A DNA stretch of 64,000 nucleotides from Amphiura filiformis. Taxonomy: Eukaryota. Both the position numbers and the translations under genes were made by a program. The stretch is taken from the NCBI RefSeq assembly GCF_039555335.1, contig NC_092646.1, positions 57,946,946 through 58,010,945 of the forward strand, read 5' to 3'. The notes beneath the pieces were generated by a model. It saw only the letters and a program-made list of their open reading frames with translations, ran no database searches and had not been told where the DNA came from. This document shows, one piece after another, positions 6,001-58,161 of this stretch. Positions within the stretch are counted from its first letter, which is position 1, and the number at the start of each line of letters is the position of its first letter.

Positions 6001-7810
6001 TCGAAATCATATTGAGTCATTAACCTCTAATTGTGACCATCCACATCGAAATCATATTGAGTCATTAACCTCTAATTGTGACCATCCACATCGAAATCGT
6101 ATTGAGTCATTAACCTCTAATTGTGACCATCCACATCGAAATCATATTGAGTCATTAACCTCTAATTGTGACCATCCACATCGAAATCATATTGAGTCAT
6201 TAACCTCTAATTGTGACCATCCACATCGAAATCATATTGAGTCATTAACCTCTAATTGTGACCATCCACATCGAAATCATATTGAGTCATTAACCTCTAA
6301 TTGTGACCATCCACATCGAAATCGTATTGAGTCATTAACCTCTAATTGTGACCATCCACATCGAAATCATATTGAGTCATTAACCTCTAATTGTGACCAT
6401 CCACATCGAAATCATATTGAGTCATTAACCTCTAATTGTGACCATCCACATCGAAATCGTATTGAGTCATTAACCTCTAATTGTGACCATCCACATCAAA
6501 ATCGTATTGAGTCATTAACCTCTAATTGTGACCATCCACATCGAAATCATATTGAGTCATTAACCTCTAATTGTGACCATCCACATCGAAATCGTATTGA
6601 GTCATTAACCTCTAATTGTGACCATCCACATCGAAATCATATTGAGTCATTAACCTCTAATTGTGACCATCCACATCGAAATCGTATTGAGTCATTAACC
6701 TCTAATTGTGACCATCCACATCGAAATCGTATTGAGTCATTAACCTCTAATTGTGACCATCCACATCGAAATCATATTGAGTCATTAACCTCTAATTGTG
6801 ACCATCCACATCGAAATCATATTGAGTCATTAACCTCTAATTGTGACCATCCACATCGAAATCATATTGAGTCATTAACCTCTAATTGTGACCATCCACA
6901 TCTAAATCATATTGAGTCATTAACCTCTAATTGTGACCATCCACATCGAAATCGTATTGAGTCATTAACCTCTAATTGTGACCATCCACATCGAAATCGT
7001 ATTGAGTCATTAACCTCTAATTGTGACCATCCACATCGAAATCGTATTGAGTCATTAACCTCTAATTGTGACCATCCACATCGAAATCGTATTGAGTCAT
7101 TAACCTCTAATTGTGACCATCCACATCGAAATCATATTGAGTCATTAACCTCTAATTGTGACCATCCACATCGAAATCATATTGAGTCATTAACCTCTAA
7201 TTGTGACCATCCACATCGAAATCGTATTGAGTCATTAACCTCTAATTGTGACCATCCACATCGAAATCGTATTGAGTCATTAACCTCTAATTGTGACCAT
7301 CCACATCGAAATCGTATTGAGTCATTAACCTCTAATTGTGACCATCCACATCGAAATCGTATTGAGTCATTAACCTCTAATTGTGACCATCCACATCGAA
7401 ATCGTATTGAGTCATTAACCTCTAATTGTGACCATCCACATCGAAATCATATTGAGTCATTAACCTCTAATTGTGACCATCCACATCGAAATCGTATTGA
7501 GTCATTAACCTCTAATTGTGACCATCCACATCCACATCGAATCGTATTGAGTCATTAACCTCTAATTGTGACCATCCACATCGAAATCGTATTGAGTCAT
7601 TAACCTCTAATTGTGACCATCCACATCGAAATCGTATTGAGTCATTAACCTCTAATTGTGACCATCCACATCAAAATCATATTGAGTCATTAACCTCTAA
7701 TTGTGACCATCCACATCAAAATCATATTGAGTCATTAACCTCTAATTGTGACCATCCACATCGAAATCGTATTGAGTCATTAACCTCTAATTGTGACCAT
7801 CCACATCGAA
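1..7810. repeat. 45-bp tandem satellite, consensus TGTGACCATCCACATCGAAATCGTATTGAGTCATTAACCTCTAAT, about 173 copies, extends beyond window start
   Basis: A perfect 45-nt periodicity is visible by eye. The same 15-aa period (HPHRNRIESLTSNCD) appears in every stop-free frame of the ORF track. Variants are few (CGT>CAT, CGA>CAA) and junction scars are small. Confidence 0.97.
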
Positions 7811-8304
7811 ACGCTCGTAAAGTCGGCCCCTGGTCAATTATGTTTTCTTGCGTATTTAGAAAATATATATCATAAGCTTTACAATGATATATCATTTAAC
7901 TTCAAACAATATCCAGAAGCGGGGTTATGGCTTGTTAAACTTTGCTACTTCAGTAAAAAGGTACATTATTTTGGTGCTACAATACATGTATATCTCTTTT
8001 TCTATATACATTGCTGGTATTAAATATCAAATGGTCATATTTGGTCACTTTAAATCATCCCCAAGTCAAACGAGGTTCAGGAATGTCCTCTCATTGTTAA
8101 TTGTTGGTTAACTCACCATTTGAACAGGATTTAGCCAAAGCAAACAAAGACTAAAGCTATTTACTATAAGTATAAGCTTATTATCCTCTTCAACAATAGG
8201 ATTAAAGATTGGTATTTGACTGGACTGAAATGAGACACTTGTAGGACAATTATTAGGTACATTATGAATACAAGCTTTATGCACATTTTGGACTGTAACT
8301 CGAA

Positions 8305-9995: not shown

Positions 9996-10345
9996 ACCGT
10001 ATTGGTCCGAGTATAGTCCCACCCGTTTTTATGTAAACATTTTTAAAAATTGGGGGGTGGGATTATAATAAAAAAAAAAAAAAAAAATCTAGATCATTCA
10101 TGGTTGACCTAAAAAAAAAAAAATTGATACTTTGTTTTCATGTCATACTCTATTAATGATTTCAAAATGCATTCAAATTCTATGCATTTTGAAATCATTA
10201 ATAGAGTATGACATGAATACAAATTATCAATTTTCATATTTAAAATACAAAATATCTTGAAATTTTTTTTTTTTTTTTTTTTTTTTGAAAAATGGGGGTG
10301 GGATTATACTCGAGCATGGGACTATACTCGGACGAATACGGTAAT
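9996..10345. mobile_element. MITE with ~27-bp TIRs (TACCGTATTSGTCCGAGTATAGTCCCA), internal A/T homopolymers and a 74-bp perfect palindrome (10140-10215)
   Basis: Left end 9996-10025 is the reverse complement of right end 10310-10345. The internal palindrome TGTCATACTCTATTAATGATTTCAAAATGCAT...ATGCATTTTGAAATCATTAATAGAGTATGACA is visible. Confidence 0.7.
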
Positions 10346-23358: not shown

Positions 23359-23860
23359 GCGTAGACTGAAAATTTACGAGAATCAAAGTCACACATATCC
23401 TTCCACAATCATCTCTAAAGATAATATTTGATTTGCCAAGTTGCATCAACATTCTAACCCTCATGTTGCACATACAGCATTCTCGTAATCTCCAGAAAAT
23501 CTCATTTGAATAGACACCGTACAAAATTAAGCCTCCGTCGACATTCAAACATAATCCTCTCTTTACACATCGCAGAACTGTTTTTGTTACTAATGCTTCT
23601 TGTTTTCACAAAGTTTGCAGGTAGAATAATTTACAGGAACACCACTGTGGGCATCATCGGCTCAAAAAACATATTTCTGTTGCCATCTCCGGCTGGCTTC
23701 TTGGGCCAGATAGTCTTGCAAGACCAAGATGTTGTCTTTTTTTTTTTTTTTTTAATAGTTCATTTTTTTGTTTAAAGCTATTGAGTTAGCATTGTCCCTT
23801 TACTAGGGAAGGTGGTTTTCACATGAACCACGGGACCTACTTGGGAGGCCTCTTTCATAT

Positions 23861-24337
23861 TTAATTGGCGCCCAAAGACGGGAACTCGTCTTCGTTGTCG
23901 ACCATAGGAGCAGGGCCCTCGTCTCTTCTTCTGCCGCCGCCGCGCCGCCGCGACCACCACCACGCCCTCTGCCTCCTCCACGACCGCCTCCAAATCCACG
24001 CCCGCCGCCAAATCCACGCCCACTTCCAAATCCACCCCCCTCGCGACGATCACCACCGCGATCACCACCACGGTCACCACCGCGATCACGGTCACCGCCA
24101 CGATCGCGATCACCGCCACGATCGCGATCACCGCCACGACCACCCCCACGATCTCGGTCACGATCACCACGATCGCTACCGCCACCGGGTCCGCCACGAC
24201 CTCCTCGTCCACCGCCACGGCGTCCTCCACGACCACCTCTGCCGCCGCCGCCCACGATTCTGATCCGGGTAGAAGTTAATGTTAATTTCCAAAGTCTGTT
24301 TGGTGTGTCGGTCCTTGGCCTGGTGTTCAATAGCATG
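23861..24337 (-). CDS. SERBP1: SERBP1/HABP4 (PAI-RBP1)-like terminal coding exon: conserved flanks in one frame, RGG/GGDRDR/GFGGGRG domain in another (two compensating 1-bp frameshifts)
   Basis: Acceptor tctttttccctttaccaacag|CAT. Frame A reads HAIEHQAKDRHTKQTLEININFYPDQNRG (compare SERBP1 ...[20 protein letters not shown]). About 24252 the frame shifts into the RGG domain (GGRGGRGGRRGGGRGG...GGFGSGRGFGGGRGFGGGRGGGRGRGGGRGG). About 23942 it returns to frame A for RRRDEGPAPMVDNEDEFPSLGAN* (compare SERBP1 C-terminus APDVDDPEAFPALA*). Confidence 0.65.
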
Positions 24338-26739: not shown

Positions 26740-26980
26740 CTTTTCAGCATCAGCAGCCATTTGTTCTTTCTTCTTGAGCACTTTAGTTTCCGTCCATTGT
26801 GACTGGTCCTCGCCTTCACCAGCGCGCCGCGTCTTGAATTCTTTACGGTAACGTTCCTTGGCCATCATCTCTTTGTACTCGTCTAGGGTCATCTCCGGTG
26901 CTTCGTCTTCCTTCTCGACGCCTTCTTCGCCTTCACCGGGTTCTCCATCTTCCTTGATGACCTCGTCAGTTGCATTGTCT
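26740..26980 (-). CDS. SERBP1: SERBP1/HABP4-like internal exon (hyaluronan/mRNA-binding family core)
   Basis: DNATDEVIKEDGEPGEGEEGVEKEDEAPEMTLDEYKEMMAKERYRKEFKTRRAGEGEDQSQWTETKVLKKKEQMAADAEK matches SERBP1 [41 protein letters not shown]. Donor AAG|gtatga. Acceptor tgtcacaacag|A. Confidence 0.75.
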
Positions 26981-29394
26981 CTGTTGTGACATAACAGAGT
27001 AAGAATATTAGGATACAATACGATCAGGAACCTTGCCATACATGACCAGTTTCATAGGTCCCCATGCCTGGAAAAATGTGGAATCCTGGGGGGTTGACAA
27101 GTGGACCCCCCCCCCCCACCTCAGCCATGTAACTTGGCAACAAATTGCTTTGACAGAGATCAGGAATGATTGCACTTTCCTAAAAAAACAAAAATGCATG
27201 TGAAATAGGGCAAAAAGTACCAAAAACAGGCTGAAAGTAAATAAAGTTTTGAGCACTGAAGCCTGTAAGGTATAAACATAGGTAGACTGACATACTGAGT
27301 TGACAACTGAGAAACTTTTTTGTTAAGACTGCATTGTTGTCCAAATTAACCTATTATTTGAACACATATTTTCAGAACAGGAGATCGCGATCCTGTCCTG
27401 TCACCACGGCTCGGTAGGACACGAGCAGCAGTAGGATTTGCGCGACGGCACGTGACCAAAATCATATTCCAAGTCATACTTTGGGTTTGCATTGTTAGTC
27501 TGGTCATTTTGGTGTCAACAAACAAGAACAGTTCGAGTACTCTTTGTGTGTCAAGGTCACTCAATCCCACTATTGAGTTGTAGTAATCTCATCCCAAATG
27601 CCAGAATTCAGTATCGTCCACTGAACTGTGATAACTCAAAAATTTACCATTATCTAAAAGCTATGAGTTTGTGTACACAATGTATACAAAGGTCATTCTT
27701 TGAGTGTGTAAGCCTATTGGGGTTAATGAACTTGTCTTTTAGGACCCTAGTGTTGTAGTTTGTTACAATGTTCAGTAGTTCAGTACACTTCGGTTTATAA
27801 GTAGGACCTGCTAAAAATAACACCATTTGACCAGTACCAAGACCTATCCTATGCCATACATTTGTGAAAGTGGAAATTTTGGCATGCACATTTTATTTTG
27901 TGCAATTTATTGATTTTAAACCATTTCACTTATCTTTAAATTTGCAATTTTGAACTTTTGTACATGCACCTAGACACACAAAATAAATGGCCATAAGTTC
28001 ATAGGTTTTTTTCCTGCCTAATGATGAAGCCCCATATAATGTGTTATTGGTGCCAAAATTGGAAATTCTTGGTCTCCATTTTTACCTTTCTCTCATTCCA
28101 AAACCCTACAACCTTATAAAAAAGTGATACTACTAGTATGTAAGGAAGCGAAAACTTGCAACTTTTATAACAAGTAACACACTTTAAGTGCACAAAAATT
28201 AACACAAGAAAGTACCAAAGTTAAAGTTTCTAATTTGCCTACACAACATTGCGTCGCTGGGCAGGAAAAACCTGTCATTGGCCCCTGAACATGCTTAAAT
28301 CAAAACCTCCATGTAACTGGTTGGCAGTTTTGTTTTAAACATGTTCAGGTGCCACAAACACATAGGTTTTTCTTGCCCAATGACATTTTCACATTGCATC
28401 AAGACTTACTTGGATTCAGTTTTGTTGTCGGGCGTCTTGTTCGGTTTTCTCAGGATTCCATTGGGTAGCTTCTAACTCCTCGCTATTATTGGATGTGTCT
28501 AGGTCCCTGAAACAAATCATAACCAATATGTACAGTTTAGCATGTGTAGCTCAGTTGCATTACCCTTTTTTGGTCGAAGAAGCGATGCGCCTAGGCCTGG
28601 GGAGATTCCGCTCTTTGCAATCGCAATATCCACACACAATTTTTGGTTGAGTCAGAGTCAATCTGCACACCAAAGAAATTGAACTTTTCCGTTAATTTCC
28701 AAACTGGTCGATTCCGCAACATCAGCCTTTGCAGAAAGTAAATTTATGTATCAATTTGGACTATTGTCAGGAAAGAGCAGTCACACACAATGCCCAGGTT
28801 TGTGTTAGAATCAAAGTTGAATCTTGAAAAATCCAATGCTGTATTGGGTTTGAATCATGGGCTTCCACATGGCCTATACTTTGAACACAAATCTTAAATT
28901 TACACACCCAGTTTTTTGAATTTACACACCCAAACCTTCAAATCCTGCCTAAGACCCTCGATGCCCTGATGCCCTTAACACTTTCTGCGTGCAAGTTAAG
29001 AATGCAATAATGCAATCTCACACAAGCCCATGGCGGCCATCTTGGATACTTATGTGTAAGGTTAATTTCAAAACTGTTGATGAGAAATAATCATTTGAAA
29101 TGTTTATGAAGCAATTCTAGTATGTTTTTCCTTAACCCGTTACATCGAAAACGGCTGCTATCGTCCTACGAGCAACCCGCAATACTGCGCTGCAATGTGA
29201 TTTCACACAAAATCAAAATATTGCAACTTGGCGTGTTCATTTTAGTTTTATGCCAAATCGTAACCAGAACAAAATGAGTATATCACTTCAACAGAAACTC
29301 ATTCAAGAATTAGTAAAATAGAACGAAAGTAAGTCTGAAATAATCACTCACTAAAATCTAACTTAAAATGTTATTAGTTTAAAACACTCGTTGA

Positions 29395-30696: not shown

Positions 30697-30771
30697 TTGG
30701 CCTCGTCTTTAAGGTTGCCCCAGTTGTGTGATCCACCACCTTCTCGTTTGTCTTGTGCCTTGAATGAGCTG
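30697..30771 (-). CDS. SERBP1: SERBP1/HABP4-like internal exon (SSFKAQDKREGGGSHNWGNLKDEA)
   Basis: Matches SERBP1 [26 protein letters not shown]. Acceptor tactgttttcag|C, donor AA|gtaagt. Phases are compatible with both neighbours. Confidence 0.75.
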
Positions 30772-32343
30772 CTGAAAACAGTAAAAACACATTAGACGAC
30801 TGTAGCAGTCTGTCACTGTGGTTGCACTGATACGACTGTGGACGTCCCACGGAGGATGGGAAGCCACAGTACATACCAATTCGGTAAAAGTGTAGCTGAC
30901 TTGACCGACGCAAATTGTGAGGTACAACTTGCAAGTTTGGGTATGTAAAAATTGGACTGCTGGGAGGGAGTCTGTCAAACAAACCAGGGTCAGAATTTCG
31001 GCGAGAATCTGAGAATCGATTCTGGCAAAGATGGTCGCAAACAGATTTGCATTCATGAATCAAAGTTGATTCTCGCAAACTTTTGTAGTTTACACAGAAG
31101 TTGATTTGCAAGAATCAAAATGATTCCCGCAAAATTATTCTGCAAGAATCAAGATTGACAGATTCCCGCACTGTGAAACAAAATTCTGACCCTGCAAATC
31201 TTACCAATCTATTAAATTAAAATCATTGTGAATTGCAAGAGTCCTTTTTTTTTTTTAACTGCGAGATGTGAGCACATGCTGGGAACTTTTTTTAAATTTT
31301 GTAGAGATTGGCACTTTTAATCGCATACATACATTAAACTAATATCAGTCTAACAAATAGCAGCATTAATAACATTAATTTTAATACCAAAAATATCAAA
31401 TGTGCCTGGAACAATAATTTGTATACAATGTATGCATTTCCATCATGTGGACATGTGCTACACATCATTTTCTAAAACATCCGAGAGCCCATGTTTATGA
31501 TCATTTATATCGGCATCACTTAATGTATCATTTCCAAATGCTGTGCTCCTAATGACCTAAATAGAAACCCATATTCAGCCTAGTCAGCCAGCCAGGTCAT
31601 CAGAAGGCAGACCTCAAGTTTGTCTATGCCATATGTAGGAGCTATATGATTGACAAGAAAGGTCATACAGTGAATGATTACTTGATTAGATGATTATATG
31701 GGTGGCTCTCTGCATCATTCATTTGAGATGCAGATGCATCACTTATATTGCTCTTCCAGTTCCAGATTGTCTTTGCAGGACTTCTACAGCATGAAACAAG
31801 ATTTCAAAAATGAATCTAGAACTGGAGGACAAGTATACTGTGTTCAACATTATAAAATAATCTTAGGCAGGCCAAAGTCAAAAAAAGGGTTTTCTCTCTA
31901 ACCCACGCCCAACTATGAAAGCCATCCTATGCGCTAGGCCTTTTTTAGTACAGACTTTTTAAATTATAAAATAAAATTCCTGTGTACACATAGCACTTGA
32001 CTTGTTTTTCTTTTTTAAGAGAAAAAACAGCAGTTTTTTTGCAAAATGTTTGAAACCTTTTGTTTTTGACCTCGGGAGTAAACTAGTTACCAATCTCCCA
32101 ATGCAATGGAGAGTTATTACAGTACATGCACAGGACACTAGGGTAATGCATGCCTACTTGTACATGAACTTGAGCCTGTAATTTTTAATTGCCCTGAGGG
32201 CACATGCCTACCTCTAGTATTACCAGATGCTTGTTATTCAGCACATGTACACAATCACAAATAAATCCCAATATTTTTTTCTCATCAGTTACATTTCAAG
32301 AGGGTGGGGAGTGATCAGGAAAGCGCAATTAAAATCCACTTGC

Positions 32344-32854
32344 CTCTTATCGCTTCCACTGTGTCGGTCAAACTCTCTCTTGCCACGGAAATCTCGTCCT
32401 CCTCGGATCCCGCCTTGTCCCCTACCACGCCCTCTGCCTCTTCTGGCGCCACGCTCTCCACCAAATTCGCCGCCACTACCAAATCCGCCGCCGCCGCTAC
32501 CAAATGTACCGCCGCTACCAAATCCGCCGCCGCTGCCAAATCCGCCACCGCTACCAAATCCACCACTTCTTGGCGGCCTATCTCCTTGATCTCGGAATGA
32601 CGGCCTGTCACCGCCCCTATCGCTCCTAAATTCGTTTGACGGTGCCTGGTTTTCTCTGTTCTCATGGAAGAAACCACCGTCTTGGTTTCGCCTCTCACCG
32701 CGGTTGTCCCTACCGCCGTCACGGTCACGAGGACCGTCTCGGTCTCGGTTTTGTCTACCTTCTGATCGGCGGTTGTCTGAGCGGCCACCTCTGTTGCCAC
32801 CACGGCCACCTCTGTTGCCCTGCCTGTTGCCCTCGGGCCTATCTGATTTGATTT
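32344..32854 (-). CDS. SERBP1: SERBP1/HABP4-like exon 2: RGG/GFGSGG-rich region ending ...RDFRGKREFDRHSGSDK
   Basis: Acceptor ttttttattttcag|AA. The sequence ...GGFGSGGGFGSGG...RGRGRGRGQGGIRGGRDFRGKREFDRHSGSDK matches the SERBP1 RGKREFDRHSGSD motif. The donor is the non-canonical-but-valid AG|GCAAGT. Confidence 0.75.
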
Positions 32855-40451: not shown

Positions 40452-40650
40452 CTTCTTTCCTAGGTTTAGGTTCTGGCTCGGGTTCTTTCTTCACAACTTC
40501 CTGCTGTTTCTTTGACTTCTTGCTTCCCTTCTGTGGTTTTTTCTCCTTCGCTTGAGCCTCTATTGAAGACAAAATTTCATCGGGATCTCCCACACTATCC
40601 CATTCCACAAGATACCTATTGTGGGTCTGTATACCGTAGCTTGATTCCAT
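40452..40650 (-). CDS. SERBP1: SERBP1/HABP4-like first coding exon (start ATG 40648-40650)
   Basis: MESSYGIQTHNRYLVEWDSVGDPDEILSSIEAQAKEKKPQKGSKKSKKQQEVVKKEPEPEPKPRKE matches the HABP4/SERBP1 N-terminus ([27 protein letters not shown]...). Donor G|gtgaat, phase 1, compatible with exon 2. This donor is the least certain splice site in the model. Confidence 0.6.
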
Positions 40651-41000: not shown

Positions 41001-42043
41001 GGAGAGCTATCAAATCGCTATAATTCTGATCCAAGATAGCGATAATTATTTTTGGGGAACATAAAAATAAATAAATGAAAGAAATGAATGAATGAATAGT
41101 GTAGGTCCTATTAAATTAGACTGGTAACTGTAAAAATTTAACATTTTCGCACGCTCATTGGTGCATGGCACAAAGATTTTTTTTGACAATTGAGGGGGAG
41201 AGCTATTGATTTCTTTTGGGGGCATCGGATTGGCTGGGTAAATTGGTTCATTTTGATGGATGGAGGGGGAATTGGTTTCCCCATTGCCCCGGAAAAAGGT
41301 GATAGGCCTACATAATGAAACCGAAATTGAGTTTATCTTCAACTTTTTGAGTGCCTTTTGAGAGCGTTTTGAAGGTTGCCCCAAATGTGTCGCTTCCCCC
41401 TCCTCCCCTTTTTGAAGTTAGTGCCATAAATCCAAACCCTTTCGGAATGACAAAATTACCCCCCCCCCCCTCAGGCGCAGATTAGTGGGCCCCTCCCCCT
41501 CCACAAGAAAAACGAAAGGAGGAGAGAAGAGAAAGGGGAAAGGGAGAAAAAGATGGTAATTGAGTAGGCTCATGAATGAATGCCTAAATAAATGCACGGT
41601 CTGGAGCTGGATGGGGCTCCCCTCCCCTGTGAGAAGTCTTTCCCCTCTTGCCCCCCCGGACGCAGGACGCCCTGTTTGACCATTTTTGTCAAAGTTTGTT
41701 CCCTTAAATCTAAGTTGTCTTCCCCAGTGGCGGAATTTCAGGGGGTAGGCCTATGATACGGTGGGGCAAAAGTCAACAAATGTTGCGCAACTTGTGCCGC
41801 AAAAAGTGGAAATTTACTCGGGAAACAGGGAGAACAAGAGTTCTGACTGGGGAATCGAATCCCCCGTGGGGCCGCCACTGGTCTTCCCCCCCCTCCTTTC
41901 CCCACCCTCTGATAAAGTGCTGGTTAGGCCCCGCCGCCAATAGGCCCAAAAACCTGTGATCACTGCGGGTGCACTCTGACTTCAACATCAATCCATGCAT
42001 GCTTTAGTATTGTCATGGAAGAAAGAGATGAGAAGGAACCACA

Positions 42044-45000
42044 TAGTCCTGGCCCTAGCTAGAACCCGGCCTACACCGGATAGGGCAGAGATTTTGACAC
42101 TTGATTTGGGTTATTGGACCTTTGAGGTTAACGAATCACAGAGGTGCTTTTGCGAAAGCGGCTGCGAATTCGAGAAATCAAGATGGCCGCCGGCGGCCAT
42201 TTTGAAAATTTTAAATTTTAGTTTTCACTCAATATTCATGTGTAATACATCATTCTATAGGTTTTTGAATACAAGGAATCAATTTCTGACATTATTTTTA
42301 TGATTGAAGGTCAGTATAACATGTTTACATTCAAAATGGCTGCCAAATGGTTGCCAAAAGATGGGGTTTTCATTAAAATGTATTTAGAATTCAATATTTT
42401 AACTTATTTGATGTTAAAAATAACCATGGGTTGCTGATATTATGGTCAGTTACAACTATGTCATTTCTATCATCTCCTGGATATGTGTAAAAATCAAAAT
42501 GGCTGCCAAAATGGCCGCCAAAATCGTCTTTTTTCATTAAAATGTGTTACAGGAGTATTATGAAGTACCAGATTTACAATGAAATGGTGCCAAACATTGT
42601 GTTCTTTTGTATTCAAAGTATCTCTCTGGTAAAGGGGTAAAAATATGACATCAGCATCAATTAATATGATCTCATGGGCATGTAAACATTCAAAATGGCC
42701 GCCAAAATGGCTGCAAAAACATGATTTTTTCATTAAAATGATATTTAAAACAGCATTTTAATAGATGTTGTGTTAAATATTTTCATTGAACGCTGATATA
42801 ATGTTAAAGGAGTATTTCTATCCAAATTTCTTCCTGCTCATGTGTTTTTACATTCATGAAAGAAACCTAAACCCAAATTTTCATGCAAATCGGACATTCA
42901 GTTGGCGAATTATGGGCTATAACATATATTTCAATGGTCCATAGGATTGTGTGTGATACTTTCGTTGTCGACAGAATGAAATTCAAAATCGAACATTTCG
43001 GCCCGTTTCTCTAGATATAAATTATAAATTTATAAGATAAATTTGCAAGATTCCTTTGCACATGATCATTATGCACCTAGTAAGGGAGACCGGGACAGGT
43101 TGGCCCCCTTTTCCCCCACTTATCTGGAGAGCTCAGTTTGTGGGTTAGGAGGCTCTCATGATCAATTTGATACTTGAGAGCTGTTTACTCTAGGTAAATG
43201 CTAACAAATTTATATGGCTCTGTGACTTATACAAAAGTTATAGTAGTTGTAGGAGAGAGCGAAAAGAAAATTAACCAGGCCGGGGCAGGTTGGCCCACCA
43301 AACGGGGCAGGTTGGCCCTCTATGCACAACCGTGTGTTATTGCCATATTTCTTTCCAATAAAACATTCTAAAGTTACTACTGCGGTAAGATATCACCTAT
43401 CATAGTTCCAAGATAATCAAAAAATAAAATTCATTTTGCGCCATCATGGGTCATTCTTGAGGAAATAGCTAAAATCAAGGAAATAACGTTAACCAATCAT
43501 CTTATAAAACCCATAACGAAAAACTGAAAGGCTGTGGATAACAATTGTAATTGACTTTTTTTTTCATTTTTAACTATTCTGAGTGATGAATTACTTTTTA
43601 TGTACAAATTCCCAATTATAAAGAAATATGATATTGAAATATTGCTATTTCCAGTCAAAAAGTGCTCAAATAGGACAACAATATAGATTTTTTTTTACTA
43701 TACTCCGCCTTTGAACAATTTTATCCATGGAACTGACTAGTGTTGGTGTGTAAATTGTATTTTGCTTCATTTGACACAAAATGGGTGAAATGGAGAAAGT
43801 ATGCATAACTCTTGCCCATAAACACAATGGGGGCAACCTGCCCCAGCACAAGTGGGCCAACCTGCCCCATAGTCTATTTTTTGTTTTCCATCAAATTCCG
43901 CAAAACAGAAACAGGATGGAAAGCTTTCAACTATATGGCATTTTAAGCAAGACCCATACCTTCCAGCAACTTACAATTTACATAATGTATTATGTGCAAC
44001 AATAGTGCTTTCTTTCCTTTCTTTTTTTCTCCAAAATGACCATGCAAGTAGTTTTAAATTGATAATATTATGTCTCAACAACATGTAATTTATCTGATTT
44101 TTGAAGGAAATGGTGCCACATGAGTGCTTTCTTCGAGATCCAAAAATATCTTTGTGGCAGAAGGGTAACGTAAAATATGTCATTCAAAATTATCCCATGG
44201 GTAAGTTCAAAGAAATAAAAGTGACTCCCAAAATGGCCACCAAAATATTATTTTTTCATCAAAATCTGTTACAGCGACACTAGGTATCTGGTTTTCAAGG
44301 GGATGGTGCCATAAAAGGAGAGTATTTTCGCACATAATCATTATAGCATAGCAGTAATAGGAAAACAGCATGGACTTATGGGTAATTGGGCATGTTTAAA
44401 ATTCAACTTGGCCACCAAAATAATATTTTGGATGTTGGTGTAACAGTCATATTCTTTTAAATGACTGTTACACCAACTTTCAAGATACCAGTTTTTTACA
44501 GGAGATGTCATTTTTTCAGCTTCATGGCATATGGTTAACATTCTGTCGTAAAATGATTCTGCCGGCATGCTCATACCAACGGGACCCCTTATATACTAGG
44601 TGCATAATGATCATGTGCAAGAGGAATCTTGCAAATATATTCCCTTTCCAGAGAAACCGGCCAACATGTTCGATTTTGAATTTTATTCTGTCGCCAACGA
44701 AAGTATAACACACAATCCTATGGACCATTGAAATATACGGTATGTTATAGTCCATAATTCGCCAACGGAATGTCCGATTTGCATGAAATTTAGGATTTAA
44801 GATTCTTTTATGAATGTAAAAACACATGAGCAGGAAGAAATTGGGATAGAAATATCCCTTTAACATTATATCAGCGTTCCATGGAAATATTTAACACAAC
44901 ATCTATTAAAATGCTGTTTTAAATACCATTTTAATGAAAAAATCATGTTTTGCAGCCATTTTGGCGGCCATTTTGAATGTTTACATGCCCATATGAGATA

Positions 45001-45620
45001 ATATTAATTGATGCCGATGTCATATTGTTACCCCTTTACCAGAGGGATACTTTGAATACAAAAGAACACAATGTTTGGCACCATTTCATTGTAAATCTGG
45101 TACTTTATAATACTCCTGTAACACATTTTAATGAAAAAAGACTATTTTGGCGGCCATTTTGGCAGCCATTTTGATTTTTAAACATATCTAGGAGATGATA
45201 GAAATGACATAGACAACTGACCATAATATCAGCATCCCATGGTTATTTTTAACATCAAATAAGTTAAAATATTGAATTCTAAATGCATTTTAATGAAAAC
45301 CCCATCTTTTGGCAACCATTCGGCGGCCATTTTGAATGTAAACATGTTATACTGACCTTCAATCATAAAAATAATGTCAGAAATTGATTCCTTGTATGCA
45401 AAAACCTATAGAATGATGTATTACACATGAATATTGAGTGAAAACTAAAATTTAAAATTTTCAAAATGGCCGCCGGCGGCCATCTTGAACTCTCGAATTC
45501 GCAGCCGCTTTCGCAAAAGCACCTCCGTGATTCTTTAACCTCAAAGGTCCAATAACCCAAATCAAGTGTCAAAATCTCTGCCCTATCCGGTGTAGGCCGG
45601 GTTCTAGCTAGGGCCTGGAC
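42044..45620. mobile_element. Foldback-type element: ~1.05-kb inverted arms (42044-43095 / 44560-45620) built from CAAAATGGCYGCCAAAATGGCYGC subrepeats, ~1.5-kb centre
   Basis: The two arms are mutual reverse complements at about 90% identity. They include near-identical + ORF 41995-42303 and - ORF 45363-45626. 150-190-bp subrepeats containing AAAATGGCCGCCAAAATGGCTGC occur at 42330, 42495, 42680 and mirrored at 44940, 45130, 45310. Confidence 0.8.
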
Positions 45621-45694
45621 TAACAACGACTTCGATCGGCCAAGTTTTAATCCGCTGATCTATTGACGCATGAAAAGAAAAGCTATCAATTGTT

Positions 45695-53118: not shown

Positions 53119-53605
53119 ATGGATCCACTTCCGGTTAAAATTAAAGCGCCAAATTCATCGGTTTTAATTTGGCGCGGAAGTCATTGTACACAAACCAGCT
53201 CGATCAGTGAAGACACCATGGCTACCGTTCTCACAAATTCTCCGTCTAAAATCATTCCAAATGTCATCATCAGGTCTCCAGTCAGGCCTTTACGGTTTGA
53301 TATGACTCCGATGAGCCCCATGAGTCCAGGTTTGGGCGATTTCTACCCATGGAAATGGCATGAAAGTGCAAGAAACGTCGAATTTAGCCCGGCAAGCACT
53401 TGCAGTTCGCCGAGAACGCCGGGTTCGGAATGCACCATCTCCAGCCCACGTACAAGGGGACGACCGAGGGCTGAAACCATTCCAGATCTCCAGCGAGAAG
53501 GAACTTCATTGCCTGTTGAATCTCCAGTTGGCATCAAATGCAGAATTTGTTCACGAGTTTTTCCACGAGAGAAATCTTTACAAGCACACATGAGAACTCA
53601 CACAG
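53119..53605 (+). CDS. ZNF367: ZNF367-like C2H2 zinc-finger protein, coding exon 1 (includes RGRPRAE AT-hook-like motif and finger 1 CRICSRVFPREKSLQAHMRTH)
   Basis: MDPLPV...SPGLGDFYPWKWHESARNVEFSP...RTRGRPRAETIPDLQREG...IKCRICSRVFPREKSLQAHMRTHTG. Donor ACAG|gtaagc, phase 1. Motifs match vertebrate ZNF367 as I recall it (YPWRWGENAHNV, RGRPRADTVRDLINEG, CNICNRVFPREKSLQAHKRTHTG). Confidence 0.75.
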
Positions 53606-54272
53606 GTAAGCTTAATCTTTAAACATGTTAAAGTAGTCCTTTTAAATTTTCATCCAGGCCGATCACATTCACGTACATGTATGATGATCATCATCATGCA
53701 TACATGATCATGATGATAATTATGTAGTTATATAAATAATACAACATTTATGTTAATACATTCAGTGTTTACAGTTTCTCATCGACGCATGGACGTTTAT
53801 ATTGTATTTGTTGAACTTGTACACGTCTAATATTTCTATTAATTTTTATTCTAAAAAAGATTATTGTACGGTACTTTATAAAAAAAATAATGTAAAATTG
53901 ATCAAGATCATCACATCATGATTCACAATAGAATACATTCAATATATTTTGATTCATTCATTTCTTTAATCTCGGTCTCATCTGTTCTGACATTTTTGAG
54001 ATATTTTGTCGTTTTTTAATTGTGATCTTTGACTTTTAGTTTAATATTGTTGGCAATCAACTTTTCTTTAGTCGAGTTAGAAAACAGTTTCACTTTCATT
54101 TTTGAAACCACGCGTGATATTCTTGTCATTACAATGGCAATGCCATGGTTGATTTTGGCAATTTGTTTTGTTTTGTGAATTTTGTGTGCATAAAGCGGCC
54201 TATACAATGTCAATATGACTCAACATTGTGTCTTAAAATAATTCTAAAAAATTAAAAATTATTATTTTATAT

Positions 54273-54647
54273 TTAGGGGTATTACACCTTGCCAAATTTT
54301 TTGCCTATTTTTGCATTTTTCTCAAAAATTATAGCGTATTGGTGACAAGTAAGATATGTATATATTATAGGGGCAAGGACTACAACTACTGCACTGGAAA
54401 TTTTATTTCAGCTCAGACAACAGTTGTGGAGTTACAGTCAAAAATGAGGGAAAACCAATATTTGATCAATAAATCAATAACTACTTGATGTGAGTTGCTG
54501 AATTTTCAGTGCAGTAGTTGTAGTCCTTGCCCCTATCAGAGTGCCCCTATAATATACATACTGCTTGGCACCAATGCGCTATAATTTTTGAGAAAAATGC
54601 AAAAATAGGCACAAAATTGGCCAGGGGTGTAGTACCCCCTTAAAGTT
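54273..54647. mobile_element. MITE family B copy inside ZNF367-like intron 1
   Basis: TTTAGGGGTATTACACCTTGCCAAATTTTTTGCC...GGCCAGGGGTGTAGTACCCCCTTAAAG. Confidence 0.8.
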
Positions 54648-54795
54648 GCTTGTCAAAAAATTGCAAGAACTACTAGTATGGTACTAGTCTTTCGTATCAT
54701 ATTTTCTCCACAAAATTGATCTTCTTGAAATTTGAAGTAGTCTTTTTTGTAATAGATATAAAGAGCAGAATACACATCCTAAATCAAATATTATC

Positions 54796-55040
54796 AGGCC
54801 TCGAAATAAGCCAGAATTTCTCAGGGCCATTTGGGCCCTCGATCATAAATGTTTGAGGGCCCTCACAAACTTTTGTGGGCCCAAATTTGGGCCATTGGTT
54901 TTAACCTATGAACCCCACAAAAAAGTGAGAAAAATTGTAAATTTTTTGCGGGCCATTTGGGCCCACTGGATGTATCTTTTGCGGGCCCTCACTAATTTTC
55001 GGGGGCCGAGGGCCCTTGTGCCCTCCTTATTTCGAGCCCT
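54796..55040. mobile_element. MITE with TIR GGCCTCGAAATAAG and internal GGGCCATTTGGGCCC palindromic subrepeats (in ZNF367-like intron 1)
   Basis: CAGGCCTCGAAATAAGCC ... CCTTATTTCGAGCCCTG. GGGCC(N)GGGCCC motifs at 54826, 54855, 54872, 54950, 54975, 55000. Confidence 0.6.
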
Positions 55041-56559
55041 GAATATTATATATTGGGCTAATATTTTACAACCAAGCTCTCTGATATGGTTGGCAAATTG
55101 GCATTAAAGATTTGCATGTACACAGTCCACCACAGTCCAACCCTCTTTCATTGACTGTTTTTTAAAGTCCGCCAAAAACCACTAAGCAAGTGAGCCAGGC
55201 AGGCAGCTTTGCATGGGTCTTTGTTTACCCAACCCTGAAGGCCATTTGTGTGCTCTATTGTGGTGCCTGGCTACAGTGGCCCATCAATGCTTTCCCATGA
55301 TGCATTAAAAATAAAGGAACTGTATGTCCAATGGTAGTGTATGACTGGAATAAACCACATTTGAGATGGAATACTAGTATGGGCAAATAAAAAAAATGAA
55401 ACAATGTATGCGGTGTGCCATGTCGGCACCAGGAATCAAATGTTGAAATTTATGGAAGCAATCATTTTTTTCTGTTTAAAAAAATTAAAAAAATAGATTC
55501 AATATTTAGGTGTCAAATTGACAAAAAATGTTTCCCCTTTTTAATACGCCATGTTTTCCCCTAGCCTTTTTCTCATTGACATTGAAAACTTGATTATTAA
55601 AATATTCAGATTATTCTCCGCTCGGGAGTCGGGATCCTCAAAAAATATTCTCAGTCAAAAATTTTTTTTTAACTTGTAAAATCTTTGAATTACAAAAGAA
55701 ATAAGAAATATTGGGCCTAAATGTGGGGTTTTTTTTAAAGATAATTTTTAACTTGTTGATATAACCGTAAATATTTTAAATGAATAATATTCATTGAATA
55801 TGGTAATTACCAAAAGTTCTGTGTACCGTACCAGTTAAAATTCGCCCATCTTGACTCCTGCGTGACCAAGCAAGCTAAAAAAAAATAGATGAAATCCGTG
55901 CAATTTTAAAGGTTGCAATAATTATTACATTGCATCATGGGATGTGTTTAAATCAAGCCCTGCTTTAGCTTCACACTTAATAAGCGGGAAGTTTTAAACT
56001 GCATATAAAACCAATACTCAATGGGCTGGCTAGAATTGAAAACATTGATTTCATTTCAAATTCATTGATCCAGTCTGCTTATTACAAGGTTGCAATCTGT
56101 TTACACATCAAATGATGTAGTTGATACTGGTAGATTATTCTATTTATAGTGGGTCATTTTCACTACCCTGGATATAAAATTTGTTAATAAATTTTAATAA
56201 ATTATAAAAATAAAATAAATTTAATAAAATGAAAAATATGGAATCCCATCCCATAGCATTCAAACTCTTTTCCATTAAACCACAGCTACCCATAAAATTA
56301 CTGCAAAATATTTCAAGTTGAAATCATGTATTTTTAAAGGGAAAAAAATTATTGAATTGGGTCTAAGATTGTAGACCTACCTATTTGTCAATGAAATTCA
56401 TTTTAAATTAAAATATATTGATTTCATGTTTTATTTATTTGTTGTTATTGTTGTGTGTTTTTGGGTTTTTTTTAGTTGCCAGCATAGCTGCAACCCTGCT
56501 TACAGATAAATCTTCAAAGTGCACCAGTTTTAAGATATTTTGTTTTTGTTTGTTTCAGG

Positions 56560-56679
56560 TGAGAGGCCGTACATGTGTGACTATCCCAACTGTGGTCGGG
56601 CCTTCGTACAGAGTGGGCAGCTTAAGACACATCAGCGTCTTCACACGGGAGAAAAACCATTTGCTTGTTCTGTTGAAGG
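56560..56679 (+). CDS. ZNF367: ZNF367-like coding exon 2 (finger 2: [39 protein letters not shown])
   Basis: Acceptor ttgtttgtttcag|G, donor GAAG|gtgagc. The [27 protein letters not shown] motif is conserved in ZNF367. Confidence 0.8.
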
Positions 56680-56840
56680 TGAGCAATACATTCTACAAAT
56701 GTATGGGGCAAACTGACCCAGATTTTTGTATAAATATTTTGTTGCAAAAATGTATATTTTCTTTTGTTTTTTAACAATAACAATTGGGGTTTTTGCATTT
56801 GAAGGTTCTGAACATTGAAATAAGTAAGACTATAGAAAAC

Positions 56841-57012
56841 GGGCCTTGTCTTTTGAAAATTGCTGGCGAGTGACAAATCGCTCTCCTCAAAACTTGTCAG
56901 GTGAGCTGTAGTCGAGGGATTTTAATCACTTGCATTATGTAGGCGAGTGATAAAAAGTTCTCAACTTCATTTCTGGCAAGTGATTGCTCTCACTCGCCTC
57001 AAAAGACAAGGC
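56841..57012. mobile_element. MITE family F-like (TIR GGCCTTGTCTTTTGA...CAAAAGACAAGGCC), in ZNF367-like intron 2
   Basis: Terminal inverted repeats are visible. Internal GCGAGTGA...TCACTTGC / CAAGTGATTGCTCTCACTCGCC palindromes. Confidence 0.6.
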
Positions 57013-57191
57013 CTGAGAAAATATGGACCAACTCCAGAAAATGATGGGAGGTCACAGGGATCAGAACAAACAAAATTATTTTAGATACAGCCTCATGAAC
57101 AAGCAAGTTTGATTGGCAATTTTTATTAAGAACTTATTGAATACATCAATACCAAAGGTAATCATACTATTATTTTGTTTTTTCCCTCCAG

Positions 57192-57339
57192 ATTGTAAGA
57201 GTCGTTTTACCCATGCTAATAGACACTGTACAGAGCATCCGTTTGCCAGTCTTAAGAGAGTTACCACAGAAGTAGCATTAGAAGATCTCAACTTTAAGAT
57301 GGATGAAAACTCACAAGAAGTCATTGAATGGTTACACAG
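57192..57339 (+). CDS. ZNF367: ZNF367-like coding exon 3 (atypical finger 3 GCKSRFTHANRHCTEHP, then ...EVIEWLHR)
   Basis: Acceptor ttttccctccag|A, donor ACAG|gtaaga, phase-consistent. GC.SRFTHANRHC..HP matches ZNF367. Confidence 0.8.
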
Positions 57340-57941
57340 GTAAGAAATCAGACTGCATTATGGGATGCAATCATGCAAATGAGATGATTGAGCAAATTCA
57401 GGCTACTGCTGTAAATGCAGATATTGTTGGGCGATTAATTTATAATTGCGCCCTTGCCAGTTTCTGAATGTCCGACTTTCCAGAAATGGTGTTTTTGAAA
57501 AATCTTTGGAAACTAGATATGACATCCTAAAAACAAAAGTCCTCTCGCTAGGGGGGAGAGGGGATCAAAATGTCCACAATTTTACGTTTATAAGCAAATT
57601 TCTGAAATTACTGGCCAAAGTTGATCTTTCCAGTTGGAATTTTCAACATTTTACACTTCAGGTCAGGGAGGGGGTTATCCTAAAGATTACAAACTCACTT
57701 TCTTTTATATTAATAGAACATTGTTCCCATACAAGACTGACATTGAAATGGCAATTTAGCATGTATGTTTCTGAAGAATACCAGACACAGTACAAATTAT
57801 GCATTGTACTACCTAGTTCATTTATTCACAAAATTTAAATAACTGGAACAGAGAATGTGTGAATTTGTGAAACACACCCTCTTGGAATATCTGATCTCGC
57901 GACTCAACTTCCAATATCTTGCTTTGTTCTCCATTCACCAG

Positions 57942-58161
57942 GTACGCTGAAGGCCAACGCAACAAGCACCAATCAACTCACGAAAAGAAACAAAAACGTA
58001 AGCTCAGCAGCGGTGAAGGCGATGATTACCCTAATATCACAGAAACACCGAAGCGTCCTCGAGTAACAGCCAGGAGGAGATTACAAGAGCAACGAGAAAA
58101 ATTAATGGGCGCTATGGCGCTGATTGAACTAGCTGAACAATTGCCTGGCAGTGCCTCATGA
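57942..58161 (+). CDS. ZNF367: ZNF367-like terminal coding exon (...RRRLQEQREKLMGAMALIELAEQLPGSAS*)
   Basis: Acceptor ccattcaccag|G. The C-terminal coiled-coil-like RRLQEQRE.L.GA.ALIELA motif matches the ZNF367 C-terminus. Stop TGA at 58159-58161. Confidence 0.75.

What the first reader, a model, noticed from the sequence alone, without database searches (positions are those of the whole stretch)
23861..24337. SERBP1/HABP4-like last exon has two compensating 1-bp frameshifts exactly bracketing the RGG domain
Exons 1-4 are intact and phase-consistent. Exon 5 enters in the correct phase with HAIEHQAKDRHTKQTLEININFYPDQNRG. Then, in the G-run CGTGGGCGG (plus strand 24251-24253), the RGG-rich ORF continues one base out of frame for about 105 codons. 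In GGCGGCGCGGCGG (plus strand about 23938-23946) it drops back one base. The conserved C-terminus ...DEGPAPMVDNEDEFPSLGAN* then follows in the original frame. Removing one G at the first site and adding one at the second gives a seamless protein. There are three possibilities. (i) Two homopolymer or GGC-tract assembly errors. (ii) A real allele in which the first indel truncates the protein to ...RGRRRQRWSWRTPWRWTRRSWRTRWR*. (iii) Much less likely, a biological frameshift. The exact compensation and the location in slippage-prone tracts are noteworthy either way.
Basis: seen in the sequence. Interest (0 to 1): 0.65.

Follow-up and report, generated by a model that had tools for sequence, protein, structure and literature searches.

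The report
Frame-broken last exon of SERBP1/HABP4 gene
The last exon of an otherwise normal SERBP1/HABP4-type ribosome-preservation gene changes reading frame twice at GGC-repeat tracts, which is most likely a consensus error in the genome assembly or, less likely, real decay of the gene, and is not a new biological mechanism.

Summary
Exon 6 (24337-23861, minus strand) reads HAIEHQ...NRG in frame 0. It needs frame +1 for about 103 RGG codons and returns to frame 0 for ...DEGPAPMVDNEDEFPSLGAN*.

A contig from a related echinoderm (JAAUXV010179123.1) carries the same exon as one uninterrupted 128-codon frame. In the DNA alignment every gap is a multiple of 3 except two. One is an extra G at CGTGGGCGG (24253-24251). 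The other is an 8-nt surplus in the (GGC)n tract at 23949-23933.

A homologous exon at 28506-28410 is 97 nt long and has an in-frame TGA.

The gene otherwise looks functional:
- canonical splice sites (one GC-AG intron);
- dN/dS of about 0.12 against the relative;
- no excess of lineage-specific changes;
- the ancestral head-to-head position next to ZNF367, as in Saccoglossus.

Best reading (about 0.5): 1-nt consensus errors at repeat tracts that may differ in length between alleles. Rival (about 0.4): real lesions, meaning a young pseudogene or null allele. This rival is supported by the clean sequence elsewhere in the window. Programmed recoding is effectively excluded. Reads or cDNA are needed to decide. 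Interest is low.

The parts
23861..24337 (-). Last coding exon (exon 6) of the SERBP1/HABP4-like gene. It contains the N-terminal piece in frame 0, the RGG domain in frame +1, and the acidic EFPSLGAN tail with TAA in frame 0.
   Evidence: tblastn of urchin proteins. Alignment to the related contig.
24241..24253 (-). Shift site 1: G + (GGC)4, in the context CGT-G-GGCGGCGGCGGC-AGA. The window has one G more than the related species (CAT-GGCGGTGGTGGC). Frame 0 changes to +1 here.
   Evidence: 1-nt gap at alignment column 114. (coordinates and repair).
24176..24178 (-). First frame-0 stop (TAG) after shift site 1. As assembled, the product ends ...NRGRRRQRWSWRTPWRWTRRSWRTRWR*.
23933..23949 (-). 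Shift site 2: a 17-nt tract GGCGGCG|CGGCGGCGGC, which is (GGC)6 minus one G or (GGC)5 plus GC. It is an 8-nt surplus relative to the related species. Frame +1 returns to 0 here.
   Evidence: 8-nt gap, columns 415-422..
26740..26980 (-). Exon 5 (241 nt), encoding ...DNATDEVIKEDGE...EMTLDEYK...AEK. It is intact.
   Evidence: The acceptor cag|AGACAATGC is conserved in L004.
28410..28506 (-). Exon 4 (97 nt, 3n+1), encoding DLDTSNNSEELEATQWNPEKTEQDA..., with an in-frame TGA at 28418-28416. This is a third frame problem. Candidate sites are A4 at 28449-28446, C3 at 28432-28430 and A4 at 28423-28420.
   Evidence: The Lytechinus counterpart is 90 nt with phase-2 introns on both sides.
30697..30771 (-). 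Exon 3, a 75-nt cassette-type exon encoding SSSFKAQDKREGGGSHNWGNLKDEAK.
   Evidence: It is absent from S. purpuratus isoform X3.
32344..32854 (-). Exon 2 (511 nt). It is RGG- and GFGSGG-rich and ends KREFDRHSGSDK. Its donor is AG|GCAAGT (a GC-AG intron). Its own GGC tracts are in frame.
40452..40650 (-). Exon 1 with the start codon, encoding MESSYGIQTHNRYLVEWDSVGDPDEIL...
53218..58161 (+). Neighbouring ZNF367 orthologue. It has four exons and an intact 291-aa ORF and lies head-to-head with the SERBP1/HABP4-like gene. It serves as a synteny marker and as a frame-integrity control.
   Evidence: The same arrangement occurs in Saccoglossus.

Best explanation
The exon is an ordinary single-frame exon of the positional orthologue of SERBP1/HABP4 (Stm1/Vig family, a ribosome-preservation and RGG RNA-binding protein). 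It encodes the end of the HABP4 region, an RGG box and the acidic ...EFPSLGAN tail. The two frame changes are 1-nt length errors in the assembled consensus. They sit at two pure (GGC)n tracts specific to this lineage, which flank an internally repetitive, roughly 70% G+C segment. The real gene would have one G fewer at 24253-24251 and one G more at 23943/23942, or equivalent changes. The real protein would be the 532-aa product reconstructed. The likely route is the collapse of two alleles that differ in repeat number, or poor polishing of a GC-rich repeat. Either leaves a partial repeat unit: 13 nt where 12 or 15 is expected, and 17 nt where 15 or 18 is expected. Shown here: the frame breaks, their exact positions, the ancestral single-frame state, and the otherwise intact and constrained gene. 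Inferred: that the extra and missing bases are not in the animal's DNA.
For: 1. The orthologous exon in a related species (L004, JAAUXV010179123.1, positions 1583-1966) is one 128-codon frame with the same N-terminal piece, RGG box and tail. Lytechinus exon 6 is also a single frame.
2. In the DNA alignment only the two named gaps (1 and 8 nt) are not multiples of 3. Both lie in pure GGC tracts present only in the window sequence. Replication slippage in a trinucleotide tract changes whole units, whereas partial units are what a collapsed consensus produces. [quoted passage not shown]
3. The rest of the gene looks functional. It has an ATG and five introns with canonical sites (one GC-AG). All family motifs are present. 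With the three single-base edits, the reconstructed protein scores 82 bits against PF04774 (cut-off 21.8), matching profile positions 1-115 of 115.
4. Over 129 non-RGG codons, dN/dS against the relative is 0.12. Polarised changes are 3 on the window lineage and 6 on the relative's lineage, so there is no acceleration.
5. The gene sits head-to-head with ZNF367, exactly as in Saccoglossus GL017664.1. It is therefore the ancestral-locus copy and not a dispersed duplicate.
6. With three single-base edits the whole 1599-nt CDS is open.
Against: Base-level quality elsewhere in the window looks good. In the 45-bp satellite, 162 of 170 units are exactly 45 bp and none has a 1-nt indel. The ZNF367 CDS (876 nt) is intact. 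Exon 2, which also contains GGC tracts, is in frame. Homopolymers up to 24 nt are present. Under a uniform error process, all three detected frame breaks falling in the 1.6 kb of this CDS, out of the roughly 9.8 kb checked (CDS + satellite + ZNF367), has P of about 0.005 (my calculation). The exon-4 lesion is not in a GC-rich repeat. Several lesions in one gene is the classic signature of a pseudogene. No reads, transcripts or second assembly of this species could be found: exact look-ups were negative, and no hit above 45% identity appeared.
Confidence: 0.5

Rival explanations
1. The indels are real. The positional SERBP1/HABP4 orthologue, or this haplotype of it, is a young unitary pseudogene or null allele carrying three 1-nt frame lesions: one in exon 4 and two in exon 6. 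If it is transcribed, exon-4-containing mRNA stops at TGA 28418-28416. Exon-4-skipped mRNA gives a protein ending ...NRGRRRQRWSWRTPWRWTRRSWRTRWR*, which lacks the RGG box and the conserved tail. The opposite signs of the two exon-6 lesions are coincidence.
For: There are three separate frame lesions in one 1.6-kb CDS. Control sequence in the same window shows no 1-nt indels: the satellite, ZNF367 and exon 2. The exon-4 lesion lies in ordinary sequence. The 3' UTR alignment to the relative shows a high indel-to-substitution ratio, with 7 gap openings against 26 mismatches in 208 columns. Three indels could therefore accumulate with too few substitutions to be seen in the dN/dS or relative-rate tests.
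Against: There is no nonsense substitution, no splice-site loss and no motif loss. The window lineage shows no excess of changes (3 against 6). dN/dS is 0.12. The gene is at the ancestral syntenic locus. From established knowledge, the family is conserved from yeast Stm1 to human, and the searches returned one gene per urchin species. Both exon-6 lesions are partial-unit changes inside trinucleotide tracts, which is not the usual slippage product.
Confidence: 0.4
2. The sequence is correct and the gene is functional through recoding. Programmed +1 and then -1 ribosomal frameshifting, or transcript-level slippage or editing, would restore the RGG frame.
For: The only support is the formal compensation of +1 and -1 within one exon.
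Against: The orthologous exon is single-frame in the related species and in Lytechinus, so nothing is conserved. The sequence shows no X XXY YYZ heptamer at site 2. It shows no 0-frame stop or rare-codon pause at site 1, where the first 0-frame stop is 25 codons downstream. A third, uncompensated frame problem exists in exon 4. G3 and GG runs are far too short for transcriptional slippage (established knowledge).
Confidence: 0.02
3. The sequence is correct, and an internal intron ('exitron') or an alternative splice site removes the out-of-frame part, so the protein keeps frame 0.
For: Skipping exon 4 does keep the frame, because both flanking introns are phase 2. Many GT and AG dinucleotides occur inside the GC-rich exon 6.
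Against: Any internal splice that removed all ten frame-0 stops would delete the RGG box and still leave a W/R-rich wrong-frame peptide. The segment is about 70% G+C with no polypyrimidine tract. The related species translates this very segment in frame as RGG. In exon 4 the only canonical in-frame alternative donor is a weak GA|GTTAGA, although homology to urchin proteins continues beyond it.
Confidence: 0.03

Closest known systems
SERBP1 / HABP4 (vertebrates), Vig/Vig2 (Drosophila), Stm1 (yeast): Pfam PF04774 HABP4_PAI-RBP1 family of ribosome-preservation and RGG RNA-binding proteins
   Same: The reconstructed protein, which includes the three single-base edits, makes a full-length PF04774 match. 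It carries the KREFDRHSGSDK, HNWG, EMTLDEYK, GEGEDxSQW and LxINF motifs, RGG boxes and the C-terminal D-N-E-D-E-F-P-S-L tail. It is about 45% identical to sea-urchin orthologues over 91% of the query. Its six-exon structure and intron phases match Lytechinus. It has the same head-to-head ZNF367 neighbour as Saccoglossus; from memory, HABP4 and ZNF367 are also adjacent in human. Function in dormant ribosomes is described in PMC11063288 and bioRxiv 10.1101/2021.11.03.467131 (listed; abstracts only seen).
   Different: As assembled, the reading frame is broken three times, so no full-length family member can be translated from the sequence as it stands. The RGG segment is expanded by 81 nt relative to the related species.
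Frameshift artefacts of collapsed or insufficiently polished long-read assemblies (annotated by NCBI as 'LOW QUALITY PROTEIN')
   Same: The lesions are 1-nt length discrepancies at short homopolymer or short-tandem-repeat tracts inside an internally repetitive coding segment of an otherwise intact, constrained gene. PMC8445201 describes exactly this cause: internal repeats of different length between alleles.
   Different: Control sequences in the same window show no such errors. An artefact would therefore have to be context-specific, and the exon-4 lesion is not in a repeat.
Programmed +1 frameshifting of antizyme (OAZ) and -1 frameshifting of retroviral or PEG10-type genes
   Same: Only the formal need to change frame to make the conserved protein is shared.
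   Different: There is no conservation of the shift in orthologues, no slippery sequence, no stop or pause codon at the shift site, two opposite shifts plus a third lesion, and ten stops in the bypassed frame.

Membership tests
HABP4/SERBP1/Stm1 family (PF04774) | HABP4_PAI-RBP1 domain above Pfam's gathering score | tested here: met
   82 bits against a cut-off of 21.8, E = 7e-23, profile positions 1-115 of 115, residues 224-349 of the reconstructed protein. This stretch includes the repaired exon 4.
HABP4/SERBP1/Stm1 family (PF04774) | N-terminal IHABP4_N-type region (PF16174) | tested here: inconclusive
   There was no Pfam hit at E <= 0.01. However, urchin N-termini align to 40650-40453 with E of 1e-9 to 3e-11.
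HABP4/SERBP1/Stm1 family (PF04774) | C-terminal RGG box and acidic ...EFP(S/A)L tail in the same frame as the preceding LxINF segment | tested here: not met
   As assembled the pieces are in frames 0, +1 and 0. The feature is met after two 1-nt edits. It is met in the related species and in Lytechinus.
HABP4/SERBP1/Stm1 family (PF04774) | Positional orthology: head-to-head neighbour ZNF367 | tested here: met
   In the window the gene runs 40650->23861 (-) and ZNF367 runs 53218->58161 (+). Saccoglossus GL017664.1 has the same arrangement.
Programmed ribosomal frameshifting | Frame change conserved in orthologues | tested here: not met
   Exon 6 is single-frame in L004 and in Lytechinus.
Programmed ribosomal frameshifting | Slippery site and stimulatory element (0-frame stop, pause codon or downstream structure) at the shift | tested here: not met
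   The sequence shows no X XXY YYZ heptamer. The first 0-frame stop is 25 codons after site 1. Downstream structure was not folded because the first two criteria already fail.
Assembly consensus artefact | Raw reads or transcripts disagree with the assembled base counts | not testable with these tools
   No reads are available. The species is absent from the protein and contig collections.
Assembly consensus artefact | Lesions confined to homopolymer or STR tracts, with partial-unit lengths | tested here: met
   +1 nt at G+(GGC)4 and +8 nt in (GGC)n. In exon 4 the candidate sites are A4, C3 and A4 runs.
Assembly consensus artefact | Comparable indel error rate in control sequence of the same contig | tested here: not met
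   There are no 1-nt indels in 162 satellite units. ZNF367 is intact. Exon 2 is intact.
Pseudogene (unitary or duplicated, unprocessed) | Frame-disrupting lesions | tested here: met
   Three lesions as assembled.
Pseudogene (unitary or duplicated, unprocessed) | Relaxed constraint on this lineage (excess replacements, nonsense codons, splice-site loss) | tested here: not met
   Polarised changes are 3 against 6. dN/dS is 0.12. There are no nonsense substitutions, and all splice sites are present. Power is low, so a very young pseudogene would pass unnoticed.
Pseudogene (unitary or duplicated, unprocessed) | A functional paralogue elsewhere in the genome | not testable with these tools
   Only this 64-kb window of the genome is available.

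The most novel reading that the evidence does not exclude
The three indels are real, and this echinoderm lineage or individual has inactivated or truncated its positional, possibly only, SERBP1/HABP4-type ribosome-preservation factor at the ancestral ZNF367-linked locus. A still more exotic reading, lineage-specific +1/-1 recoding, is not strictly excluded, but I put it at or below 0.02.
Probability: 0.3. Interest if true: 0.4.

Novelty: not a real feature. Interest (0 to 1): 0.15.

Why it matters
This matters mainly for annotation. As assembled, a gene predictor would truncate this conserved gene, split it, call it a pseudogene or invent introns. The three positions listed here are precise targets for polishing or for a frame-corrected 'low quality protein' model. 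If the lesions proved real, this would be a natural knockout or truncation of a ribosome-hibernation factor conserved from yeast to human, in an animal whose eggs store dormant ribosomes. That would be of moderate interest to the translation field. Nothing here points to a new mechanism.

Tried and rejected
1. Same-species evidence. Exact look-ups of three window ORFs found nothing: the frame +1 exon-6 ORF, the exon-5 ORF and the ZNF367 exon-1 ORF. Two homology searches with the reconstructed protein found nothing above about 45% identity. No transcript or second assembly of this species is therefore reachable.
2. The representative-library search with the exon-5 ORF found only an 830-bp relative contig (L003). 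Its 90% cluster added only the L004 ORF.
3. The metagenome scan gave L004, which was decisive for exon 6. It starts 148 nt upstream of exon 5, so exon 4 of the relative could not be recovered. L005-L007 are unrelated or distant.
4. A uniform high error rate was rejected using the satellite and ZNF367 controls.
5. Homopolymer compression typical of raw nanopore consensus was rejected.
6. Intron 5 is too diverged from the relative to give a neutral indel spectrum, with no blastn hit. Only 208 nt of 3' UTR align.
7. Alternative splice solutions were rejected on reading the sequence and on homology. These were an internal intron in exon 6, a second acceptor for exon 5, and the weak donor GA|GTTAGA or GC donors in exon 4.
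8. Searches for the accession strings GCA_013332995, JAAUXV and SAMN14350114 in the literature found nothing, so the relative's species name remains unknown.
9. There are no tRNAs and no Rfam families in the window.

Full report
**What is in the sequence**

On the minus strand, 24337-23861 is an exon preceded by ...ccctttaccaacag|.

Its three forward frames read as follows:
- Frame 0 reads HAIEHQAKDRHTKQTLEININFYPDQNRG, then runs into RRRQRWSWRTPWRWTRRSWRTRWR*. The first stop is TAG at 24178-24176, and nine more stops follow.
- Frame +1 is a long RGG/GDRDRG/GFGxGRG open frame.
- Frame 0 reopens and ends ...RRRDEGPAPMVDNEDEFPSLGAN* (TAA at 23863-23861).

The switch sites are GGG at 24253-24251, heading a (GGC)4 tract, and the 17-nt tract GGCGGCG|CGGCGGCGGC at 23949-23933. 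Deleting one G and adding one G gives an open exon.

Five of the six frames are open across this roughly 70% G+C segment. Openness therefore proves nothing here. The frame assignment rests on homology.

**The gene**

Protein searches identify a SERBP1/HABP4 (PAI-RBP1) homologue. The best hits are sea-urchin proteins, at about 45% identity over 91% of the query.

tblastn with those proteins and inspection of the splice sites give six coding exons on the minus strand:

| Exon | Coordinates | Length | Notes |
|---|---|---|---|
| 1 | 40650-40452 | 199 nt | Contains the start codon |
| 2 | 32854-32344 | 511 nt | Donor AG\|GCAAGT, so a GC-AG intron follows |
| 3 | 30771-30697 | 75 nt | SSSFKAQDKREGGGSHNWGNLKDEAK; absent from S. 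purpuratus isoform X3 |
| 4 | 28506-28410 | 97 nt | In-frame TGA |
| 5 | 26980-26740 | 241 nt | Intact |
| 6 | 24337-23861 | 477 nt | The exon in the finding |

With three single-base edits, the reconstructed 532-aa protein matches Pfam HABP4_PAI-RBP1 end to end. The score is 82 bits against a cut-off of 21.8.

Exon 4 begins in the phase required by exons 2 and 3. It encodes DLDTSNNSEELEATQWNPEKTEQDA, which aligns with urchin DLNTSNASEEGTTQEWNQPADGEQSENA. In that frame it runs into TGA at 28418-28416, eight bases before the only good donor (CCAA|gtaagt).

The Lytechinus counterpart is 90 nt long with phase-2 introns on both sides. The window exon is 97 nt. The acceptor of exon 5 (cag|AGACAATGC) is conserved in the related species and needs two bases from exon 4.

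One base too many therefore lies somewhere between 28451 and 28419. The candidate sites are A4, C3 and A4 runs.

The whole CDS as assembled is 1600 nt (3n+1) and stops in exon 4.

**The orthologous exon in a relative**

It comes from a related echinoderm with dS of about 0.85. It carries exon 5 and the complete last exon.

That last exon (L004 1583-1966) is one uninterrupted 128-codon frame:

HIEHQARTKDGHGKHTLDININFYPDQNHGGGGGRGGRGRRGGGRGGRGREGGRDGGRDRDRDRDGPGGGSDRGGFGSGRGFGSGRGGFGRGGGRGRGGGRGSGRRKDEGPAPMVDNEDEFPSLGAN*

Lytechinus exon 6 is also a single frame.

The pairwise DNA alignment has gaps of 3, 6, 1, 3, 81, 3 and 8 nt. Five gaps are multiples of three, as expected for a translated exon.

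The 1-nt gap is the extra G in the window's CGT-G-GGCGGCGGCGGC, against CAT-GGCGGTGGTGGC in the relative. The 8-nt gap lies in the window's second GGC tract.

Both tracts are pure GGC repeats only in the window sequence. Their lengths are partial units: 13 nt where 12 or 15 is expected, and 17 nt where 15 or 18 is expected.

**Is the gene otherwise alive?**

- All splice sites and the start codon are present, and there is no nonsense substitution.
- Over 129 alignable non-RGG codons, dN/dS against the relative is 0.12.
- Among differences that can be polarised with four outgroups, 3 fall on the window lineage and 6 on the relative's lineage. There is no sign of relaxed constraint, although power is low.
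- The gene lies head-to-head with an intact ZNF367 orthologue (291 aa, four exons, 53218-58161).
- In Saccoglossus kowalevskii the HABP4-family gene and ZNF367 are adjacent in the same divergent orientation.
- From memory, human HABP4 and ZNF367 are also neighbours.

The window copy is therefore the ancestral-locus orthologue. It is not a dispersed duplicate.

**Is the assembly error-prone?**

Controls within the window say it is not, at least not uniformly:
- In the 45-bp satellite at 4-7811, 162 of 170 units are exactly 45 bp. No unit is 44 or 46 bp. The variants are mainly CpG-to-CpA changes, and the odd units have multi-base rearrangements.
- ZNF367 has no frame break in 876 nt.
- Exon 2 contains GGC tracts and is in frame.
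- Homopolymers up to T24 are present, so there is no homopolymer compression.

Under a uniform process, all three frame breaks falling in the 1.6 kb of this CDS, out of about 9.8 kb of checkable sequence, has P of about 0.005.

One caveat applies. Systematic, context-dependent consensus errors would be invisible in a satellite whose only context is one 45-mer.

**Weighing the explanations**

Consensus artefact, about 0.5:
- For: a constrained, syntenic and otherwise intact member of a family conserved from yeast to human; partial-unit length changes in lineage-specific trinucleotide tracts flanking an internally repetitive segment. PMC8445201 describes exactly this as a source of false frameshifts when alleles of different repeat length are collapsed.
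- Against: the clean controls, and the exon-4 lesion in ordinary sequence.

Real lesions, meaning a young pseudogene or null allele, about 0.4:
- For: three lesions clustered in one gene within otherwise accurate sequence.
- Compatible with: the 3' UTR alignment shows many indels per substitution (7 gap openings against 26 mismatches). Three indels could therefore accrue before substitutions became detectable.
- Against: synteny, constraint and the absence of any other damage.

Recoding, at or below 0.02. It fails every criterion tested:
- The shift is not conserved in orthologues.
- There is no slippery site or pause codon.
- Ten stops lie in the bypassed frame.
- There is an uncompensated third lesion.

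Internal splicing, about 0.03. It would delete the RGG box that the relative translates in frame.

The 'exact compensation' is weak evidence in any direction. Two independent 1-nt changes have opposite sign half the time, and the gene as a whole is not compensated.

**Organism**

The source is an echinoderm by best hits.
- ZNF367 exon 1 is 67-68% identical to sea stars and urchins and 61-63% to crinoids.
- It is 85-90% identical to unnamed ORFs on ENA and NCBI contigs.
- Those contigs align to the window at about 72-85% DNA identity.

This suggests, by inference, a class other than Asteroidea, Echinoidea or Crinoidea. The species itself is not in the searchable collections.

**Verdict**

Biologically it is either an assembly artefact or an ordinary gene-inactivating lesion set. 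Neither is new.

The deciding data are reads and cDNA over three short intervals, and they are outside these tools. Interest is low.

Noticed in passing
window 28410-28506 (minus): An exon of the same gene, homologous to the urchin DLNTSN... exon, is 97 nt long (3n+1) and has an in-frame TGA at 28418-28416. This is a third frame problem that is not in the finding. Skipping the exon keeps the frame.
   Followed up: yes
window 4-7811: A 45-bp tandem satellite of about 173 units with strong C-over-G strand skew. 162 of 170 anchored units are exactly 45 bp. The variants are almost all CpG-to-CpA changes at two positions of the unit, and a few units carry multi-base rearrangements.
   Followed up: partly
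window 32338-32343 (minus), donor of intron 2: This is a GC-AG intron with donor AG|GCAAGT. It lies directly upstream of the 75-nt cassette-type exon at 30771-30697, which one S. purpuratus isoform lacks.
   Followed up: partly
window 53218-58161 (plus): An intact ZNF367 orthologue (291 aa, 4 exons) lies head-to-head with the HABP4-family gene, 12.5 kb away. The same divergent gene pair is adjacent in Saccoglossus (L008), so this is an old deuterostome microsynteny.
   Followed up: yes
window 41980-42300 (+) and 45366-45659 (-): Two nearly identical repeat copies lie in inverted orientation. Their translated ORFs share ...ARTRPTPDRAEILTLDLGYWTFEV...RWPPAAILKILNFSFHSIFMCNTSFYRFL.... They are presumably a transposable-element family or the arms of one element.
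   Followed up: no
L003 1-165 (related-species contig ERZ23486772 scaffold_442934): About 200 nt upstream of exon 5 the relative carries a degenerate partial duplicate of the start of exon 5 (GDNATYEAVQEDGALVE...).
   Followed up: no
window 24060-24140 (minus), inside exon 6: The unit GGTGATCGCGATCGTGGC (GDRDRG) occurs as near-perfect tandem 18-nt repeats. They form part of an 81-nt expansion relative to the related species, so the RGG segment is evolving by in-frame repeat gain.
   Followed up: partly
window 23737-23753, 27106-27117, 10263-10286: Long homopolymers are present: T17 on the plus strand about 110 nt downstream of the stop codon, C12 in intron 4, and T24. They show that the assembly does not compress homopolymers.
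   Followed up: partly
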